Positions 808-64,000 of a DNA stretch of 64,000 nucleotides are shown one piece after another. Position 1 is the first letter of the stretch. The number at the start of each line of letters is the position of its first letter. The notes under the pieces are model-generated. The model worked only from the letters and a program-made list of their open reading frames with translations, was not told the DNA's origin and made no database searches. The DNA comes from an uncultured virus (IMG/VR IMGVR_UViG_3300042331_000187). Taxonomy: Duplodnaviria > Heunggongvirae > Uroviricota > Caudoviricetes. Made by a program: the position numbers and the translations under genes. Location: the IMG/VR virus record IMGVR_UViG_3300042331_000187; one strand, 5' to 3'.

Positions 808-929
808 CCCTCTCCATCCTCGCCGGCATGATCGAGATCATTGCCGTGCTGGTCATTGTTGGCACCGCCACCTTGGCCACGTCGCTGTGGTGGGCGCTGT
901 GTGAGCGGCTGGTGGGGGAGGCCGCCTGA
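804..929 (+). CDS. Small membrane protein (41 aa), allele of 61031-61162
   Basis: MTLSILAGMIEIIAVLVIVGTATLATSLWWALCERL; conserved in the second copy with mostly synonymous changes. Confidence 0.7.
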   Translation: MTLSILAGMIEIIAVLVIVGTATLATSLWWALCERLVGEAA

Positions 930-2365
930 TGACCACCTACGCCGAGTTCCTAGACCGCAAGCTCCACACCGGCGCTGACCACGGCTTCGATCCAGTGTTC
1001 ATGCCGCCGCAGCTGTTCGACTTCCAGCAAGCCCTAGTCGAGTGGGCTGTCCGCAAGGGCCGCGCCGCAATCTTTGCTGACTGCGGCCTAGGCAAAACCG
1101 CCATGCAGCTCACATGGGCTGAAAACGTGGCGCGTCACACCGCCCACCCGGTGCTAATCCTGACCCCGCTGGCCGTCGCCGCGCAGACCATCCGCGAGGG
1201 TGAAAAGTTCGGCATTGAGGCTCACCGCTCTAGCGATGGCAGCGTGATGGGGCGGATCGTGATCACGAACTACGACAGGCTCCACCTGTTTGATCCTGCT
1301 GATTTTGGTGCGGTTGTCTGCGACGAATCGAGCATCCTGAAATCGTTTAACGGCTCCACCAGAAAGGCGATCACTCGCTTCATGGCCAAGATGCCGTACC
1401 GGCTGCTGTGCACGGCAACAGCTGCGCCGAATGATTACACCGAGCTGGGCAATTCATCTGAAGCGCTGGGTGAGTTGAGCTACAGCGACATGCTGCGCCG
1501 GTTCTTTGCACAGCTGGATGACAAGGGCCAGAAACGCGAAGAGCGCCTGCAAGAGTCAGCCGAAGCGATGATCAACGCCAACGCCAACTACTACAAAAAG
1601 CTGGCCTTCAGGGTGTCGCAGACTATCGGCCAGTGGCGCCTTAAGCATCACGCCCGCGAACATTTCTGGCGCTGGGTGGCCAGCTGGGCTAGGGCTTGCC
1701 GGATGCCGTCTGATCTGGGTTTCGCCAACGATGGCTTTATCCTGCCGCCTCTGGTTGAGCGTGATCACATTATTGCCCCGGCCACCCCGCCAGAGGGGAT
1801 GCTGTTCTCAATGCCCGCCTTTGGCCTGGCGGAGGAACGGGAAGAGCGCAAGCGCACCATGCAGGAGCGCTGCGAGTTTGCGGCTCAGCTGGTGGAGCAT
1901 GATCGCCCTGCGGTGATCTGGTGCCACACCAACGCCGAGGGCGACCTGCTAGAGCAGCTGATCCCCGATGCTGCCCAGGTTGCCGGCCGCACTCCAGACG
2001 ATCGGAAGGTGGAGCTCTATGAGGCCTTCGCCGATGGCCGTCAGCGGGTGCTGGTGATCAAGCCAAAGATCGGCGCATGGGGGCTGAACTGGCAACATTG
2101 CGCCCACGTGGTGACGTTCGCCAGTCACAGCTATGAGCAGTACTACCAATCAGTTCGCCGCTGCTGGCGCTTTGGCCAGCAGAGCACGGTCCACCTTGAC
2201 GTGATCGCCACCGAGGGCGAGGCCAGAGTGCTGGCAAACATGCGCGGCAAGGCTGAGCGAGCGTCCGCCATGTTTGAGGAACTGGTGGCGCAGATGAACA
2301 ACGCCACCACGATCAAGCGCACCAATCTCTACACCACTACACCGAGGCTCCCGCAATGGCTGTAA
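929..2365 (+). CDS. SNF2-like superfamily 2 helicase
   Basis: Walker A DCGLGKT, DESS motif II, TATAAPN motif III, QSVRRCWRFGQ motif VI. Confidence 0.9.
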   Translation: MTTYAEFLDRKLHTGADHGFDPVFMPPQLFDFQQALVEWAVRKGRAAIFADCGLGKTAMQLTWAENVARHTAHPVLILTPLAVAAQTIREGEKFGIEAHRSSDGSVMGRIVITNYDRLHLFDPADFGAVVCDESSILKSFNGSTRKAITRFMAKMPYRLLCTATAAPNDYTELGNSSEALGELSYSDMLRRFFAQLDDKGQKREERLQESAEAMINANANYYKKLAFRVSQTIGQWRLKHHAREHFWRWVASWARACRMPSDLGFANDGFILPPLVERDHIIAPATPPEGMLFSMPAFGLAEEREERKRTMQERCEFAAQLVEHDRPAVIWCHTNAEGDLLEQLIPDAAQVAGRTPDDRKVELYEAFADGRQRVLVIKPKIGAWGLNWQHCAHVVTFASHSYEQYYQSVRRCWRFGQQSTVHLDVIATEGEARVLANMRGKAERASAMFEELVAQMNNATTIKRTNLYTTTPRLPQWL

Positions 2366-3330
2366 AGGATCAGCTCATCACAGACAACTACGCCATCTAC
2401 AACGGCGACTGCATTGAAGTAATGCAAGGCCTGCCAGATGAATCGGTACACCTCACCGTCTACTCTCCGCCCTTTGCCGGGCTGTATCAGTACAGCAGCG
2501 ACGATCGGGATATGTCCAACTGCCTGAACTATGACGAGTTTTTCGCTCATTACGGATTTTGCATTGACGAAATCTCCCGGATCACAATGCCGGGCAGGAT
2601 CTCAGCGGTTCATTGCATGGACATTCCGCTAAGCAATGCCGGATGCGATGCCATGTTTGATCTGCCTGGCCGGATCATCCGCGAGCACGAAGCCCGAGGA
2701 TTTGCTTATGGCGGCCGGCGGGTGATCTGGAAGGAGCCGCTGCTGGTACGCAATCGCACCATGATGAAGAGCTTGCATCACAAGACACTGTGCGAGGACT
2801 CCACGCGCAACAGCATCGCTAACGCTGACTACCTGCTGATGTTCCGCCGCAAGGGCGAGAATCCGGTTCCAGTGACTCACGAAGTAGGCCTGCTGCACTA
2901 CAGCGGCGAGCGAACTGTCCCAGCTGACCTGAACGGGTACAAAGGTATGAAGGGAGATCAGAAAAAAAATCAGTACAGCCAATGGATTTGGCGGCAGTAC
3001 GCCTCCAGCGTTTGGGATGACATCAGGATTGACAACGTGCTGCAGTTCCGCAGCGCTAGGGATGGCGAAGACGAGAAGCACGTGCACCCGCTTCAGCTGG
3101 ACGTGATTGACCGAGCCGTGGTGATGTGGAGCAACCCCGGCGAGACCGTGCTGACCCCCTTCATGGGCGTCGGCAGCGAGGTCTACGGGGCGGTGCAAGC
3201 TGGCCGCCGTGGCGTCGGCATCGAGCTGAAGCCCAGCTACTACCGGCAGGCAGTGCGGAACCTGGAGCTGGCCGGCGAGCCGGATCAGCCCGGCGATCAG
3301 TCATCCCTCTTCGACCTAGAGACCGCCTAA
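2356..3330 (+). CDS. DNA methyltransferase, N4C/N6A family (beta class)
   Basis: GDCIEVM start, VYSPPF catalytic motif, HVHPLQ, TPFMGVGS SAM-binding motif, GIEL. Confidence 0.9.
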   Translation: MAVKDQLITDNYAIYNGDCIEVMQGLPDESVHLTVYSPPFAGLYQYSSDDRDMSNCLNYDEFFAHYGFCIDEISRITMPGRISAVHCMDIPLSNAGCDAMFDLPGRIIREHEARGFAYGGRRVIWKEPLLVRNRTMMKSLHHKTLCEDSTRNSIANADYLLMFRRKGENPVPVTHEVGLLHYSGERTVPADLNGYKGMKGDQKKNQYSQWIWRQYASSVWDDIRIDNVLQFRSARDGEDEKHVHPLQLDVIDRAVVMWSNPGETVLTPFMGVGSEVYGAVQAGRRGVGIELKPSYYRQAVRNLELAGEPDQPGDQSSLFDLETA

Positions 3331-3473
3331 TGGAAACCCGCCGCCTAACCATCTGCCTCACCCTCCCCGAGGTCGAGGCGCTCCGCCGCCAGCTCCGGCC
3401 TGGCGAGGGGATGAACGATCTGCTGCGGCGGATCGTGAACGACCGGATCCACAACCCCACCCCATCACGATGA
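3330..3473 (+). CDS. Small ribbon-helix-helix-like DNA-binding protein
   Basis: METRRLTICLTLPEVEALRRQL...MNDLLRRIV; coupled to methylase stop. Confidence 0.6.
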   Translation: METRRLTICLTLPEVEALRRQLRPGEGMNDLLRRIVNDRIHNPTPSR

Positions 3474-3748
3474 TCACCTACACCACCCCCACCCAGCAGG
3501 CCATGGCCCGCATTGCCACCGCGCCTGTCACCAGCGATCAGGCCCGGCGCCCACCAACACCCTCCATCCGGCTATCCCTGGCCGCCTGCCCCATGCCGGC
3601 GCGGTGCTCTAAGCCGTGCGAGATGTGCTCTGGTGTCGCCCGCAGCGTCGCCGGTGAGCTGGGGCAGGTGCTGAGGGAGCGCCACGGCGGGTCCAGTTCA
3701 GTGGCGGACTGGCTGGATGGATTCACACACACTGGAGATGAACGATGA
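3470..3748 (+). CDS. Hypothetical protein with Cys cluster
   Basis: ATGA overlaps; CPxxxRCSKPCEMC. Confidence 0.6.
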   Translation: MITYTTPTQQAMARIATAPVTSDQARRPPTPSIRLSLAACPMPARCSKPCEMCSGVARSVAGELGQVLRERHGGSSSVADWLDGFTHTGDER

Positions 3749-44598: not shown

Positions 44599-44651
44599 TG
44601 ATCAGTGTCGGCAGCCTGTCTAGATCCTGACTCAAGACTAGGGAGAACAGG

Positions 44652-44671
44652 AAAAGGCGGGTTGCCCCGCC
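44652..44671 (-). terminator. Intrinsic terminator closing the repeat array
   Basis: Minus strand GGCGGG-GCAA-CCCGCC-TTTT. Confidence 0.75.
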
Positions 44672-45158
44672 TTGCCTTGCCGCCGGAAGCGGCCCTCGCC
44701 TTGCCACGCCAGTCCCTGCCACGCCATGCCTGGCCTAGCATCGCCCAGCCGCGCCCCAGGGTGCCGCGTCTGCCCTCAAAAGAGAGCAGCAGGGAGCCTC
44801 CGCAGAAGCTCCGTGCTGCTGTCTGCAGCCCTTGCCAGGCCCGGCCATGCCTCGCATGGGCTCGCCCCGCCACAACGTACCCCGCTGCGCCTGGCCTTGC
44901 CCACCCCTTGTGAGGGTGGCAGGGAGGCCGGAGCCTCCGTGCCACCGTCTGTGGCCCACACCATGCCCAGCCCTGCCGAGCTTGACATCGCCCCGCCTGA
45001 CCTAGCCAGGCCTCGCCGCGCCTCATCCGCCAATGAAGGCGGCAGGGAAGGCCCGTAGGCCCTCCGTGCTGCCATCGCAGCCCTTGCCGCGCCATGCCTC
45101 GCCCTGCCTGACCTGACCATGCCGGGCTCCGCCTGACCGAACCCCGCCAGGCCTTGCT
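44672..45158 (-). ncRNA. VIPR-like guide RNA array: four (GGY-NN)n tracts with hairpin linkers
   Basis: Tracts 45084-45158 (15 pentamers), 44958-45022 (13), 44832-44901 (14), 44696-44770 (15); 45 of 57 triplets are GGC/GGT; linkers carry UNCG hairpins. Confidence 0.85.
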
Positions 45159-45189
45159 GGGACTTACACCGTCACCGGATGCCAGCGCA

Positions 45190-45822
45190 TCAGGCCACCT
45201 CCGCCAGCAGTCGATCTAGTTGCTCGGCGACAGGTATCACCTCAGCATCAAACCGGCCATGCTTAGGCCGCCAATCGCCAATCCCCACCAGCTTGCCGGC
45301 GTCGATGGCGATCTCTTCAACGTCCCGCATGTTGAGCACGTCGGGGTCGTACTGAGCCAAGGCAGTGATGTTCCAGTTGCGGAACACGGGGCGGGTGCGC
45401 ATCACCTTGGCCATGCCTACCTTGACGCCAATCGTGTGGGTGAAGTCGCCACTGGCAAACATTTCCGAAAGCGTTTCATCGGTGATGATCTCAGGTTTGC
45501 CGTCAAACTGCAGTGAAGCGTGCTCAGTGAAGAACAGGCCGCACTTCGCTTGAGGGCCGCGCTTTGACTTTTTGGCGCCGCCGATCATCGTGCTTTCAAT
45601 CACGTAATCAGGGATCACCAAGTCGCCGTCGATGCGATATAGGCCAGCAAGCCATTCAAGCCGGGCCAGCTCGTCGTAATCAGCGTCGGTCTTCTTGCGC
45701 TTGCTGCTGACTGCTTTCATCGCCTTCGCGTAAGTATTTCGCGGATCGGCGGTCTGACCGTTGTGGCACAACAGTGGGCTCACGCCTTGCAGTCGAATCT
45801 GAACAGAAGGAAGGCTGGACAT
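45190..45822 (-). CDS. Stand-alone Cas7/RAMP-like protein (Vipr-like), 210 aa
   Basis: IRLQGVSPLLCHN beta1, LVIPDYVIESTM helix, RTRPVFRNW, C-terminal Gly loop AGKLVGIGDWRPKHGRF; GGAG RBS before ATG 45822. Confidence 0.8.
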   Translation of the reverse strand: MSSLPSVQIRLQGVSPLLCHNGQTADPRNTYAKAMKAVSSKRKKTDADYDELARLEWLAGLYRIDGDLVIPDYVIESTMIGGAKKSKRGPQAKCGLFFTEHASLQFDGKPEIITDETLSEMFASGDFTHTIGVKVGMAKVMRTRPVFRNWNITALAQYDPDVLNMRDVEEIAIDAGKLVGIGDWRPKHGRFDAEVIPVAEQLDRLLAEVA

Positions 45823-46177
45823 TTTGTCTCCGTGAAGTTGTTGGAACAGAAAGTGAAGGCGGGGCAATGTGAACCGGATCGACTTGCTTTTTGGGGTCCA
45901 GCTTGAATCGTTGGCGCCGAACTGAATTGGTGATGCCGTCATGGCACTCGGAGCACAGCGTCAGCAGGTCTGACATTTGCTCGTTGCCGAATGACGGGTA
46001 CGTGTAGTTCGGTGGGCCAGCGTTCTTGTGATGAACCTGAAGCACAGGCCAGCCCAGCTCAGCCAACTGCGCAGCAGTGATGCCGCACCCTTGGCACTGG
46101 TGGCCGTCGATCTCAAGGCGTTGCTGCCTGCGCTGCCGCCACTGGCGAGACAGGTAGTAGCCGCTAGGAGTGTTCAA
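45680..46177 (-). CDS. HNH endonuclease
   Basis: YYLSRQWRQRRQQRLEIDGHQCQGCG..LQVHHK..DLLTLCSECHD; tail overlaps the next gene. Confidence 0.82.
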   Translation of the reverse strand: MNTPSGYYLSRQWRQRRQQRLEIDGHQCQGCGITAAQLAELGWPVLQVHHKNAGPPNYTYPSFGNEQMSDLLTLCSECHDGITNSVRRQRFKLDPKKQVDPVHIAPPSLSVPTTSRRQNVQPSFCSDSTARREPTVVPQRSDRRSAKYLREGDESSQQQAQEDRR

Positions 46178-57337: not shown

Positions 57338-57493
57338 ATGATGCCAGCAGCAACCACTGAGGCGCGCAGCATTACGCTGCGGCTGCCTGTTCTACTGTTC
57401 GACCGCTTACGGGCGGCGGCAGCTGATGACCGGCGATCAATGAACAGCATGGCAGCGTTGCTGCTGGAGGCTGAGCTTGATCGCCGCAGCTGA
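57338..57493 (+). CDS. Arc-like RHH regulator
   Basis: ITLRLP..LFDRLRAAAADDRRSMNS; TATAGT upstream. Confidence 0.75.
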   Translation: MMPAATTEARSITLRLPVLLFDRLRAAAADDRRSMNSMAALLLEAELDRRS

Positions 57494-57547
57494 CCCGGCC
57501 CGCCAGAGCCGTGCCCAATCTGGCCGTCCTACCGCTCGATTCTGACC

Positions 57548-61162: not shown

Positions 61163-61370
61163 CAACACCCTGCTAGGCCGCTGCACCGTGGCCTATGAAG
61201 AGGCCTTTAACGATGCACTGCAGGCCTGGCCCGACGCCTCAGCCCGCCGCCGTGGCGTGGCTGCCGTAATCGAGCATCTGGCCGCTGAGCTGCTGGTGAT
61301 GCACCAGCGCAATGAGGGCCGGCTGTCGGCGCACGACGCAGCGCGGATGCTGCTGGAGGATCTGCGATGA
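61155..61370 (+). CDS. Hypothetical protein unique to this copy
   Basis: MPDNTLLGRC; ATGA coupling to helicase. Confidence 0.6.
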   Translation: MPDNTLLGRCTVAYEEAFNDALQAWPDASARRRGVAAVIEHLAAELLVMHQRNEGRLSAHDAARMLLEDLR

Positions 61371-62803
61371 CCACCTACGCTGAGTTCCTAGACCGCAAGC
61401 TCCACACCGGCGCTGACCACGGCTTCGATCCAGTGTTCATGCCGCCGCAGCTGTTCGACTTCCAGCAAGCCCTAGTCGAGTGGGCTGTCCGCAAGGGCCG
61501 CGCCGCAATCTTTGCTGACTGCGGCCTAGGCAAAACCGCCATGCAGCTCACATGGGCTGAAAACGTGGCGCGTCACACCGCCCACCCGGTGCTAATCCTG
61601 ACCCCGCTGGCCGTCGCCGCGCAGACCATCCGCGAGGGTGAAAAGTTCGGCATTGAGGCTCACCGCTCTAGCGATGGCAGCGTGATGGGGCGGATCGTGA
61701 TCACGAACTACGACAGGCTCCACCTGTTTGATCCTGCTGATTTTGGTGCGGTTGTCTGCGACGAATCGAGCATCCTGAAATCGTTTAACGGCTCCACCAG
61801 AAAGGCGATCACTCGCTTCATGGCCAAGATGCCGTACCGGCTGCTGTGCACGGCAACAGCTGCGCCGAATGATTACACCGAGCTGGGCAATTCATCTGAA
61901 GCGCTGGGTGAGTTGAGCTACAGCGACATGCTGCGCCGGTTCTTTGCACAGCTGGATGACAAGGGCCAGAAACGCGAAGAGCGCCTGCAAGAGTCAGCCG
62001 AAGCGATGATCAACGCCAACGCCAACTACTACAAAAAGCTGGCCTTCAGGGTGTCGCAGACTATCGGCCAGTGGCGCCTTAAGCATCACGCCCGCGAACA
62101 TTTCTGGCGCTGGGTGGCCAGCTGGGCTAGGGCTTGCCGGATGCCGTCTGATCTGGGTTTCGCCAACGATGGCTTTATCCTGCCGCCTCTGGTTGAGCGT
62201 GATCACATTATTGCCCCGGCCACCCCGCCAGAGGGGATGCTGTTCTCAATGCCCGCCTTTGGCCTGGCGGAGGAACGGGAAGAGCGCAAGCGCACCATGC
62301 AGGAGCGCTGCGAGTTTGCGGCTCAGCTGGTGGAGCATGATCGCCCTGCGGTGATCTGGTGCCACACCAACGCCGAGGGCGACCTGCTAGAGCAGCTGAT
62401 CCCCGATGCTGCCCAGGTTGCCGGCCGCACTCCAGACGATCGGAAGGTGGAGCTCTATGAGGCCTTCGCCGATGGCCGTCAGCGGGTGCTGGTGATCAAG
62501 CCAAAGATCGGCGCATGGGGGCTGAACTGGCAACATTGCGCCCACGTGGTGACGTTCGCCAGTCACAGCTATGAGCAGTACTACCAATCAGTTCGCCGCT
62601 GCTGGCGCTTTGGCCAGCAGAGCACGGTCCACCTTGACGTGATCGCCACCGAGGGCGAGGCCAGAGTGCTGGCAAACATGCGCGGCAAGGCTGAGCGAGC
62701 GTCCGCCATGTTTGAGGAACTGGTGGCGCAGATGAACAACGCCACCACGATCAAGCGCACCAATCTCTACACCACTACACCGAGGCTCCCGCAATGGCTG
62801 TAA
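61367..62803 (+). CDS. SNF2-like helicase (repeat copy)
   Basis: Same protein as 929-2365. Confidence 0.9.
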   Translation: MTTYAEFLDRKLHTGADHGFDPVFMPPQLFDFQQALVEWAVRKGRAAIFADCGLGKTAMQLTWAENVARHTAHPVLILTPLAVAAQTIREGEKFGIEAHRSSDGSVMGRIVITNYDRLHLFDPADFGAVVCDESSILKSFNGSTRKAITRFMAKMPYRLLCTATAAPNDYTELGNSSEALGELSYSDMLRRFFAQLDDKGQKREERLQESAEAMINANANYYKKLAFRVSQTIGQWRLKHHAREHFWRWVASWARACRMPSDLGFANDGFILPPLVERDHIIAPATPPEGMLFSMPAFGLAEEREERKRTMQERCEFAAQLVEHDRPAVIWCHTNAEGDLLEQLIPDAAQVAGRTPDDRKVELYEAFADGRQRVLVIKPKIGAWGLNWQHCAHVVTFASHSYEQYYQSVRRCWRFGQQSTVHLDVIATEGEARVLANMRGKAERASAMFEELVAQMNNATTIKRTNLYTTTPRLPQWL

Positions 62804-63768
62804 AGGATCAGCTCATCACAGACAACTACGCCATCTACAACGGCGACTGCATTGAAGTAATGCAAGGCCTGCCAGATGAATCGGTACACCTCACCGTCTA
62901 CTCTCCGCCCTTTGCCGGGCTGTATCAGTACAGCAGCGACGATCGGGATATGTCCAACTGCCTGAACTATGACGAGTTTTTCGCTCATTACGGATTTTGC
63001 ATTGACGAAATCTCCCGGATCACAATGCCGGGCAGGATCTCAGCGGTTCATTGCATGGACATTCCGCTAAGCAATGCCGGATGCGATGCCATGTTTGATC
63101 TGCCTGGCCGGATCATCCGCGAGCACGAAGCCCGAGGATTTGCTTATGGCGGCCGGCGGGTGATCTGGAAGGAGCCGCTGCTGGTACGCAATCGCACCAT
63201 GATGAAGAGCTTGCATCACAAGACACTGTGCGAGGACTCCACGCGCAACAGCATCGCTAACGCTGACTACCTGCTGATGTTCCGCCGCAAGGGCGAGAAT
63301 CCGGTTCCAGTGACTCACGAAGTAGGCCTGCTGCACTACAGCGGCGAGCGAACTGTCCCAGCTGACCTGAACGGGTACAAAGGTATGAAGGGAGATCAGA
63401 AAAAAAATCAGTACAGCCAATGGATTTGGCGGCAGTACGCCTCCAGCGTTTGGGATGACATCAGGATTGACAACGTGCTGCAGTTCCGCAGCGCTAGGGA
63501 TGGCGAAGACGAGAAGCACGTGCACCCGCTTCAGCTGGACGTGATTGACCGAGCCGTGGTGATGTGGAGCAACCCCGGCGAGACCGTGCTGACCCCCTTC
63601 ATGGGCGTCGGCAGCGAGGTCTACGGGGCGGTGCAAGCTGGCCGCCGTGGCGTCGGCATCGAGCTGAAGCCCAGCTACTACCGGCAGGCAGTGCGGAACC
63701 TGGAGCTGGCCGGCGAGCCGGATCAGCCCGGCGATCAGTCATCCCTCTTCGACCTAGAGACCGCCTAA
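62794..63768 (+). CDS. DNA methyltransferase (repeat copy)
   Basis: Same protein as 2356-3330. Confidence 0.9.
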   Translation: MAVKDQLITDNYAIYNGDCIEVMQGLPDESVHLTVYSPPFAGLYQYSSDDRDMSNCLNYDEFFAHYGFCIDEISRITMPGRISAVHCMDIPLSNAGCDAMFDLPGRIIREHEARGFAYGGRRVIWKEPLLVRNRTMMKSLHHKTLCEDSTRNSIANADYLLMFRRKGENPVPVTHEVGLLHYSGERTVPADLNGYKGMKGDQKKNQYSQWIWRQYASSVWDDIRIDNVLQFRSARDGEDEKHVHPLQLDVIDRAVVMWSNPGETVLTPFMGVGSEVYGAVQAGRRGVGIELKPSYYRQAVRNLELAGEPDQPGDQSSLFDLETA

Positions 63769-64000
63769 TGGAAACCCGCCGCCTAACCATCTGCCTCACC
63801 CTCCCCGAGGTCGAGGCGCTCCGCCGCCAGCTCCGGCCTGGCGAGGGGATGAACGATCTGCTGCGGCGGATCGTGAACGACCGGATCCACAACCCCACCC
63901 CATCACGATGATCACCTACACCACCCCCACCCAGCAGGCCATGGCCCGCATTGCCACCGCGCCTGTCACCAGCGATCAGGCCCGGCGCCCACCAACACCC

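What the first reader, a model, noticed from the sequence alone, without database searches (positions are those of the whole stretch)
44771..45083. Array linkers are covarying structured RNA modules with UNCG tetraloops and alternative pairings
Each tract ends in GGG plus a 5-bp hairpin (GCTGC/GCAGC, GCCAC/GTGGC, GCTGC/GCAGC, GCCGC/GCGGC). In the three linkers this is followed by AC-GGAG stems closed by cUACGg, cUCCGg and cUGCGg loops, and then a third hairpin (CCGCC/GGCGG, CCACCC/GGGTGG, CTGCTCTC/GAGGGCAG). Sequences differ but pairing is kept. The 3' arm of the first hairpin can also pair with the segment after the UNCG stem (GGCAG/CTGCC, GGTGGCA/TGCCACC, AGCAGCA/TGCTGCT). Inference: these are processing signals or filament caps that define individual guides of about 120-135 nt without a Cas6.
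Basis: partly seen in the sequence, partly recalled or inferred. Interest (0 to 1): 0.75.

Follow-up and report, generated by a model that had tools for sequence, protein, structure and literature searches.

The report
Cut-and-refold linkers in phage VIPR array
These spacers separate the guide RNAs of a known phage RNA-guided system (VIPR); their folding pattern suggests a host double-strand RNA cutter snips each spacer and the halves refold into protective end caps, a guide-maturation step that has not yet been shown.

Summary
The linkers are real and lie in a VIPR locus. The upstream gene matches SUSP1 Vipr (E 4e-27), there are four GGY/NN tracts, and two guides match rival phages by the 1-nt skip rule.

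Across 132 distinct homologous linkers two mutually exclusive folds are conserved: three short hairpins (H1-H2-H3), and one ~18-position rod with two fixed pyrimidine mismatches. A rod-only pair changes on both sides in 12 of 12 tree events. UNCG loops are not required (62 of 135).

Best reading (inferred, about 0.6): the rod is a host RNase III site cut 1-2 nt after H1. In other VIPR clades a published E. coli RNase III matrix picks exactly H1+2 in 69 of 104 linkers. In this clade the fit is not significant (551 of 1000 permutations).

VIPR is known. RNase III maturation was not found in the VIPR preprints searched. No RNA data were available.

The parts
45680..46177 (-). HNH-domain gene overlapping the vipr start; candidate accessory (vap) gene
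   Evidence: PHROG HNH hits to E 2e-10; core present without stops in 80 of 80 vipr loci of this clade and 0 of 131 loci from the other clades
45190..45822 (-). vipr gene (RAMP-fold guide-binding protein, 210 aa)
   Evidence: PDB 36pp SUSP1 Vipr E 3.8e-27; SUSP1 H17, K33, R138, D177, W178, R179 align to H20, K36, R144, D183, W184, R185 (read); phrog_4652
45156..45186 (-). Conserved leader hairpin; probable 5' cap of guide 1, ends in the same CAG-4 nt-GGY register as H3
   Evidence: Motif seen by eye in most of the distinct leaders printed (not counted)
45086..45153 (-). GGY/NN tract 1 (14 units)
   Evidence: no target of 80% or more found in fetched loci (best 20 of 28)
45023..45085 (-). Linker 1: H1 45081-45068, H2 45065-45046, H3 45042-45027; alternative rod 45076-45035; predicted cuts near 45066|45065 and 45044|45043 (or 1 nt outward)
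   Evidence: cut sites inferred
44960..45022 (-). GGY/NN tract 2 (13 units); matches the head-tail adaptor gene of related phages
   Evidence: 23 of 26 NN with 1-nt skip, skip on codon position 3, e.g. L160:1513; own gene 17 of 26
44901..44959 (-). Linker 2: H1 44955-44941, H2 44938-44923, H3 44919-44901; rod 44949-44912
44834..44901 (-). GGY/NN tract 3 (14 units, first one shared with the H3 end)
   Evidence: no target found (best 18 of 28 in adaptor-gene loci)
44766..44833 (-). Linker 3: H1 44829-44815, H2 44812-44793, H3 44789-44770; rod 44823-44782
44698..44765 (-). GGY/NN tract 4 (14 units); matches a second site in the adaptor gene of related phages
   Evidence: 23 of 28 NN, e.g. L164:1873; own gene 19 of 28
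44646..44697 (-). Terminal tail: H1-like hairpin 44693-44679, then terminator-like hairpin 44673-44654 with U run; no rod, no H3
   Evidence: one terminator-like match is within the shuffle expectation of 1.5 for the region

Best explanation
The array is a VIPR guide array, probably transcribed with hnh-vipr as one precursor (inferred). Each linker is a cut-and-refold junction. As it is transcribed, the 3' arm and loop of H1 pair with the 5' arm of H3 and extend H2 into an ~18-position rod (fold supported by covariation). A host RNase III-family enzyme makes a staggered double cut 1-2 nt after H1 and 0-1 nt before H3 (inferred), releasing H2 (18-22 nt). The freed ends refold: H1 is the 3' hairpin at which the Vipr filament ends, like the SUSP1 pseudoknot, and H3 is a 5' hairpin that shields the next guide. 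Internal guides are ~105-108 nt. Vipr then coats the GGY units and the NN positions read rival-phage DNA with a 1-nt skip (shown for SUSP1 in the literature; target matches shown here). In the compared clades the ~11-bp arm lies in a long H2. In this clade H2 is short and the arm is built from the caps themselves, which is why the alternative pairing is so extensive.
For: Rod: 15 pairs, 96.4% paired, 12 with two-sided changes, far above slid controls, and RNAalifold finds it unprompted. Pair 19-42 exists only in the rod and changes on both sides in 12 of 12 parsimony events, against 0-1 in ten non-partner controls. H1 forms in 128 of 135 and H3 in 132 of 135 linkers, with their own shared changes (H1 up to 3, H3 up to 8 per pair). 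The rod dominates until the H3 3' arm is made (P>0.5 in 132 of 135). H3 ends 4 or 9 nt before a GGY in 126 of 132, and the leader hairpin ends in the same register. Last tracts are usually followed by an unrelated hairpin (46 of 53 distinct arrays). With the E. coli RNase III pair counts (PMC6212723 Table S4), linkers of other clades give the best site exactly 2 nt after H1 in 69 of 104 (unsupervised). In a motif-anchored set this holds for 90 of 110, with 4 of 1000 permutations as good; most have an 11-position upper stem, the minimal length in PMC1540722. In this clade the best site lies on the rod axis in at least 106 of 135 and at 19|20 or 20|21 in 76 of 135. At 20|21 the D and D' positions are A-U in 111 and 105 of 135, and the rod ends exactly at I'/J' with the top E. 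coli pairs. Cyanobacterial RNase III homologs cut several E. coli substrates in vitro (PMC5829567 passages).
Against: No RNA ends or cleavage data exist here. In this clade the matrix fit is not significant once the register is free (1494 of 2000 and 551 of 1000 permutations; fixed register 106 of 2000 and 169 of 1000), and the register was first chosen from a recalled consensus. Only 8 of 135 reach the high E. coli threshold. A different scoring gave scattered best sites. At 20|21 a C.C mismatch sits between the cuts (0 of 85 E. coli sites), G-C at C' is disfavoured, and a C-G next to the cut is a catalytic antideterminant in PMC1540722. The stem above the cut is only 6-8 positions. On the full linker the three hairpins are a median 2.7 kcal/mol more stable than the rod alone. 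A covariance model of this clade does not find the Pseudomonas-type linkers (best E 0.022), so homology rests on architecture and short motifs. Seven of 135 linkers lack H1. The host is only inferred to be a picocyanobacterium.
Confidence: 0.6

Rival explanations
1. The rod is itself the mature 3' tail that caps the filament (guides ~120-135 nt). Units are separated by single-strand cleavage 3' of the rod (RNase E/J type) or by trimming, and H1/H3 are alternative folds that gate this.
For: The rod is the consensus fold and its mismatches are fixed, as a protein-read feature might be. Seven linkers lack H1 but keep the rod. Some terminal linkers keep the rod and lose the H3 3' arm. SUSP1 keeps a ~40-nt structured tail.
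Against: It does not explain why H1 and H3 both covary and begin or end exactly beside the matrix-predicted cuts, nor the H1+2 register in other clades. Last tracts mostly end in an unrelated hairpin, so no specific rod is needed for a cap.
Confidence: 0.18
2. A locus-encoded protein does the cutting: Vipr itself acting like Cas6 (both are RAMP folds), or the conserved HNH protein, reading the fixed C.C mismatch.
For: RAMP ancestry; HNH present in 80 of 80 loci; the C.C mismatch is atypical for E. coli RNase III.
Against: The same H1-H2-H3 layout and cut register occur in clades without this HNH (0 of 131). The passages of the structure preprint that I read mention no RNase activity of Vipr.
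Confidence: 0.09
3. The linker is an unrecognised self-cleaving ribozyme, as hammerheads are in VIPR types I and V.
For: Hammerhead-interspersed VIPR arrays exist; a few invariant nucleotides and fixed mismatches; CUGANGA occurs in 24 of 135 H1 regions.
Against: No Rfam ribozyme at threshold. The hammerhead core is complete in 1 of 135. Nearly all conserved positions are explained by base pairs, leaving no conserved single-stranded core.
Confidence: 0.05
4. The linker acts mainly at DNA level or as a transcription switch: inverted repeats that mark units for guide shuffling or acquisition, or a rod/three-hairpin switch that tunes read-through.
For: A-A'-A-A' symmetry with folds close in energy; linker types are shuffled among positions and arrays.
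Against: Abundant G-U pairs and stable RNA tetraloops on the guide strand point to RNA. There is no U run after internal rods. It gives no account of the RNase III register elsewhere.
Confidence: 0.08

Closest known systems
VIPR type II (SUSP1, P. fulva prophage; bioRxiv 10.64898/2026.04.26.720920, .720927)
   Same: Vipr protein with the GGY-reading residues, multi-guide GGY/NN array in a phage, structured element after each tract, 1-nt skip targets in rival phages, ~100-nt guides predicted
   Different: No pseudoknot; nested H1/H2/H3 versus rod; HNH gene upstream instead of vap1 downstream; only ~33% protein identity to Felixounavirus/LES-type Vipr. Type cannot be assigned without the paper's Data S4.
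VIPR hammerhead-interspersed and staggered arrays (same preprint, Figs S18-S19, legends read)
   Same: A cis element between guides defines their ends without Cas6
   Different: No hammerhead core; predicted to need a host enzyme and to discard an 18-22 nt hairpin
RNase III maturation of type II CRISPR RNAs (tracrRNA:crRNA), as summarised in PMC12045711
   Same: Host RNase III would separate guides in an array
   Different: The duplex is formed in cis inside each linker, with no tracrRNA, and the product ends refold into caps
Intramolecular RNase III stems of E. coli (PMC6212723, PMC1540722)
   Same: ~11 positions of helix on one side of a staggered cut, A-U at D/D'
   Different: C.C mismatch between or beside the cuts, GC-rich proximal box, short upper stem; matrix fit not significant in this clade

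Membership tests
VIPR | Vipr (RAMP) protein with G-loop and thumb residues that read GGY | tested here: met
   E 3.8e-27 to PDB 36pp; H, K, R, D, W, R residues align
VIPR | Tracts of 9-16 GGY/NN units beside the gene | tested here: met
   14, 13, 14, 14 units
VIPR | Targets follow the 1-nt skip rule, in competing phages, not self | tested here: met
   21 of 100 distinct clade guides reach 80% with skip 1, versus 0, 3, 1 with skips 0, 2, 3, in 718 kb of fetched loci; window guides 2 and 4 give 23/26 and 23/28; own gene 17/26 and 19/28
VIPR | Conserved structured 3' tail after each tract | tested here: met
   H1 in 128 of 135
VIPR | Accessory vap gene and assignment to types I-VII | tested here: inconclusive
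   HNH in 80 of 80 loci; the type-defining tree and Data S4 were not visible
VIPR | Expression as discrete ~100-nt RNAs bound by Vipr | not testable with these tools
   needs small-RNA sequencing or pull-down
SUSP1-type pseudoknot tail | Hairpin loop pairs with downstream sequence while the stem stays | tested here: not met
   The alternative helix uses the H1 3' arm itself, so it excludes H1; contrast the wV8 tails
RNase III substrate | About 11 positions of helix on at least one side of the cut | tested here: met
   Positions 20 to 10: 9 pairs plus 2 single mismatches; 11-bp minimum from PMC1540722
RNase III substrate | A-U/U-A at D and D' | tested here: met
   111 and 105 of 135 at register 20|21
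RNase III substrate | Paired, G-C-rich positions between the cuts (E. coli in vivo) | tested here: not met
   C.C at A in 131 of 135; 0 of 85 E. coli sites; in vitro these positions need not pair
RNase III substrate | Overall fit to the E. coli pair matrix better than permuted stems | tested here: inconclusive
   This clade 551 of 1000; other clades 4 of 1000
RNase III substrate | rnc-dependent ends with 2-nt 3' overhang | not testable with these tools
   experiment needed
Hammerhead ribozyme | CUGANGA and GAAA core around three stems | tested here: not met
   1 of 135; no Rfam hit

The most novel reading that the evidence does not exclude
Cis RNase III stems are the general maturation route of multi-guide VIPR arrays that lack ribozymes, including the SUSP1-like and Pseudomonas-like ones already studied. 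This probably cyanophage clade has compressed the site so that the two end caps are themselves the recognition arm: a self-sealing junction that is cleavable only while the rod lasts and turns into caps once cut. The same clade always carries an HNH gene, so it may be a phage-borne, nuclease-armed VIPR aimed at sister phages, whereas the preprint places predicted nucleases only in the antiviral types III and V.
Probability: 0.4. Interest if true: 0.75.

Novelty: new variant of a known kind. Interest (0 to 1): 0.58.

Why it matters
How non-ribozyme VIPR arrays are cut into single guides is not addressed in the preprint texts searched. This gives a nucleotide-level, cheaply testable answer that extends to the model systems, and a 60-70 nt module for multiplexing guides with built-in end protection. 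It also explains an otherwise odd conserved two-state RNA, and ties an inter-phage weapon to a host housekeeping enzyme.

Tried and rejected
Rfam, gathering over the window and E-value mode over the array: nothing above threshold. Hammerhead core: absent. Pseudoknot reading: excluded by strand sharing. UNCG as signal: not conserved.

Exact 18-base guide patterns in viral contigs gave one match each (L092, L093). Neither was among the best full-guide matches, so they were treated as chance. Targets for guides 1 and 3 were not found in the fetched loci, and no collection scan was run for them.

Sequencing runs: no RNA holder listed, which is no evidence either way. No whole genome is held for the window. 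Earlier scan notes: none returned. The covariance model did not bridge to other clades. The energy comparison used a loose constraint and was redone. Genome-contig hits carry mixed labels and were not used for the host. ARAGORN found no tRNA in the actinophage tails.

Full report
Setting. The window is a tailed-phage sequence (terminase, portal, capsid, lysozyme). Its closest terminase among phage records is Synechococcus phage S-LBS1 (51%), and a neighbouring RHH protein clusters with cyanobacterial ones, so a freshwater picocyanobacterial host is inferred, not shown. Between the terminase and head-tail adaptor genes lie, on the minus strand, an HNH gene, a 210-aa gene at 45822-45190 and four pentamer tracts. 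The 210-aa protein matches the solved SUSP1 Vipr (E 3.8e-27), with the GGY-reading residues named in the structure preprint aligned. The tracts have 14, 13, 14 and 14 GGY/NN units. This is a VIPR system (10.64898/2026.04.26.720920).

Targets confirm membership. Guides 2 and 4 match the head-tail adaptor gene of related phages at 23 of 26 and 23 of 28 NN positions, with the skipped base on codon position 3. The phage's own copy matches at 17 of 26 and 19 of 28. Over 100 distinct guides from homologous arrays, 21 reach 80% under the 1-nt skip against 0, 3 and 1 under skips 0, 2 and 3 in 718 kb of fetched loci. That search space was enriched for the adaptor gene on purpose.

The observation. Every hairpin and loop listed is there, and each linker folds better than shuffles (z about -2.7). 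Eighty viral loci (the best 80 of 87) gave 197 usable linker hits, 137 distinct. 132 were aligned by MAFFT after dropping four terminal linkers and one weak upstream hit; an anchored parse kept 135 rows and failed on two. Numbering from 45085 as position 1, two folds are conserved. One is three hairpins: H1 (5-18), H2 (21-40), H3 (from 44). The other is a rod, 10-51, in which the H1 loop and 3' arm pair with the H3 5' arm. The rod has 15 pairs, 96.4% paired, 12 with two-sided changes, against at most 64% paired in slid controls; RNAalifold chooses it. The three-hairpin fold is 95.2% paired. Two rod columns never pair: 12.49 (C.C or U.U) and 20.41 (C.C). Because relatives inflate such counts, I counted changes on trees built without the focal columns. 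The rod-only pair 19-42 changes on both sides in 12 of 12 events, 23-38 in 12 of 12, 18-43 in 3, 10-51 in 2, against 0-1 in ten controls. H1 and H3 pairs show fewer but real shared changes (125 rows having both). These trees come from ~45 columns and are rough. UNCG closes H2 in only 62 of 135.

Anatomy that points to function. H3 ends 4 or 9 nt before a GGY in 126 of 132 linkers. A different conserved hairpin before the first tract ends in the same register, so every guide seems to start with a 5' hairpin. Last tracts are followed by an unrelated hairpin in most arrays (46 of 53 distinct arrays end in a tract plus tail, 7 in a linker), so every guide ends in a hairpin whose sequence is free. 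The rod is predicted to dominate until the H3 3' arm is transcribed (132 of 135). After that the three hairpins are a median 2.7 kcal/mol more stable than the rod alone. A cut across the rod between H1 and H3 would leave both caps intact.

Testing RNase III. I first placed the cut at 20|21 and 42|43 from a recalled consensus, then scored with the published pair counts of 85 E. coli sites (PMC6212723 Table S4). In this clade 20|21 has the best mean score, with D, D', E, E', I' and J' among the top E. coli pairs and the rod ending at J'. However, C.C sits at A and G-C at C', and permuted columns do as well in 1494 of 2000 trials (551 of 1000 with core scoring). An unsupervised scan with the paper's own score puts the best site on the rod axis in at least 106 of 135, at 19|20 in 60 and 20|21 in 16; a different score scattered.

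The stronger evidence is comparative. Loci fetched with two Pseudomonas-phage Vipr proteins (131 loci scanned, 212 distinct tails) show the same layout: H1, two nucleotides, a long H2, two nucleotides, H3. Among the 110 tails that a motif parse accepted (the motif fixes positions 15-18, so their conservation is by construction), the best register is H1+2 in 90, with 4 of 1000 permutations as good, and the upper stem mostly runs 11 positions. Without fixing the stem axis or cut, 69 of 104 internal linkers give H1+2. In E. coli and Shigella Ounavirinae a long stem follows the pseudoknot. In most internal linkers of four genomes it has a site scoring about -22 to -28 (published thresholds -25.5 and -33.8), usually with the second cut a few nucleotides before the next tract; some linkers did not give this. 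A covariance model of the window's clade does not detect those other linkers, so common descent of the linkers is inferred from layout.

Mechanism. Shown: VIPR membership, target rule, two conserved folds, cap registers. Inferred: one precursor, RNase III cutting at H1+1 or +2, release of H2, caps refolding, guides of 105 and 108 nt, close to the ~100 nt reported for SUSP1. Here the H2 stem above the cut is only 6-8 positions, too short for the 11-bp minimum (PMC1540722), and the rod supplies exactly 11 positions below the cut. I put this at 0.6. The rod as retained tail is 0.18, a locus-encoded cutter 0.09, a DNA-level or switch role 0.08, a ribozyme 0.05.

What is in print. The discovery preprint describes a structured 3' tail, a SUSP1 pseudoknot, and staggered and hammerhead arrays (parts 1-5 of 6 and passages read). 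The words RNase and ribonuclease do not occur in its main text, and RNase does not occur in the held supplement PDF. The structure preprint shows the pseudoknot capping the filament and has no RNase mention (part 1 and passages). The satellite preprint mentions RNase once, in DNA extraction (passages). Library searches for vrRNA with RNase III returned 0 papers, and for VIPR, vrRNA and processing only these preprints and 10.64898/2026.10.21.760802 (passages). Figures (S6, S8, S16-S20), Data S1-S4 and bioRxiv supplements were not visible and may already show these tails, their ends or this clade's type. Subscription journals are mostly outside the library. Also consulted as passages: PMC5829567, PMC12045711, PMC5371410, 10.1101/2023.03.12.532304, PMC1540722, PMC6212723.

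Verdict. A real, conserved two-state RNA junction in a known system. It is a new variant of vrRNA array architecture, with a specific and untested maturation model that also makes predictions for the published model systems.

Noticed in passing
window 45680-46177 (-): HNH gene directly upstream of vipr in 80 of 80 loci of this clade, while a terminase hit was seen in only 35 and an adaptor hit in 34 within the 2.5 kb flanks; may be a phage-borne nuclease vap.
   Followed up: partly
window 45156-45186 (-): Conserved leader hairpin with a 4-nt bulge on its 3' side before the first tract; in some loci it overlaps the vipr stop codon. The bulge is unexplained.
   Followed up: partly
L083:2680-2741, L085:1249-1305 and 2829-2902: VIPR tails of Gordonia phage MakoManhole and Mycobacterium phage LittleE contain a T-loop-like hairpin on a closing stem, suggesting tRNA-like processing (RNase P/Z); ARAGORN calls no tRNA; 'tRNA' is absent from the discovery preprint text.
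   Followed up: partly
L081, L174-L176 (Ounavirinae arrays): A long AU-rich stem follows each pseudoknot tail and often scores as an RNase III site with the second cut just before the next tract.
   Followed up: partly
linker positions 12.49 (window 45074/45037): A mismatch that switches between C.C and U.U but never pairs (0 of 135); selection for a pyrimidine mismatch is unexplained.
   Followed up: no
L152:1100 and similar: Guide 1 matches 20 of 28 just upstream of the adaptor start codon in related phages, so three guides may aim at one gene; below the 80% line.
   Followed up: no
L012:2730: A guide from L019 matches the vipr gene of another phage at 80%, as reported for other clades.
   Followed up: no
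window 928-3562 and 61366-64000: 2635-bp repeat at 99.96% identity: terminal redundancy or assembly overlap of a ~60 kb genome.
   Followed up: no
window 57483-57525 (-): Nine-unit GGY-like run (6 good) inside an ORF, with a weak model hit nearby on the other strand; probably chance.
   Followed up: no
L011, L021, L030, L068 upstream of vipr: An extra GGY tract about 500-650 nt upstream of vipr in 4 of 80 loci.
   Followed up: no
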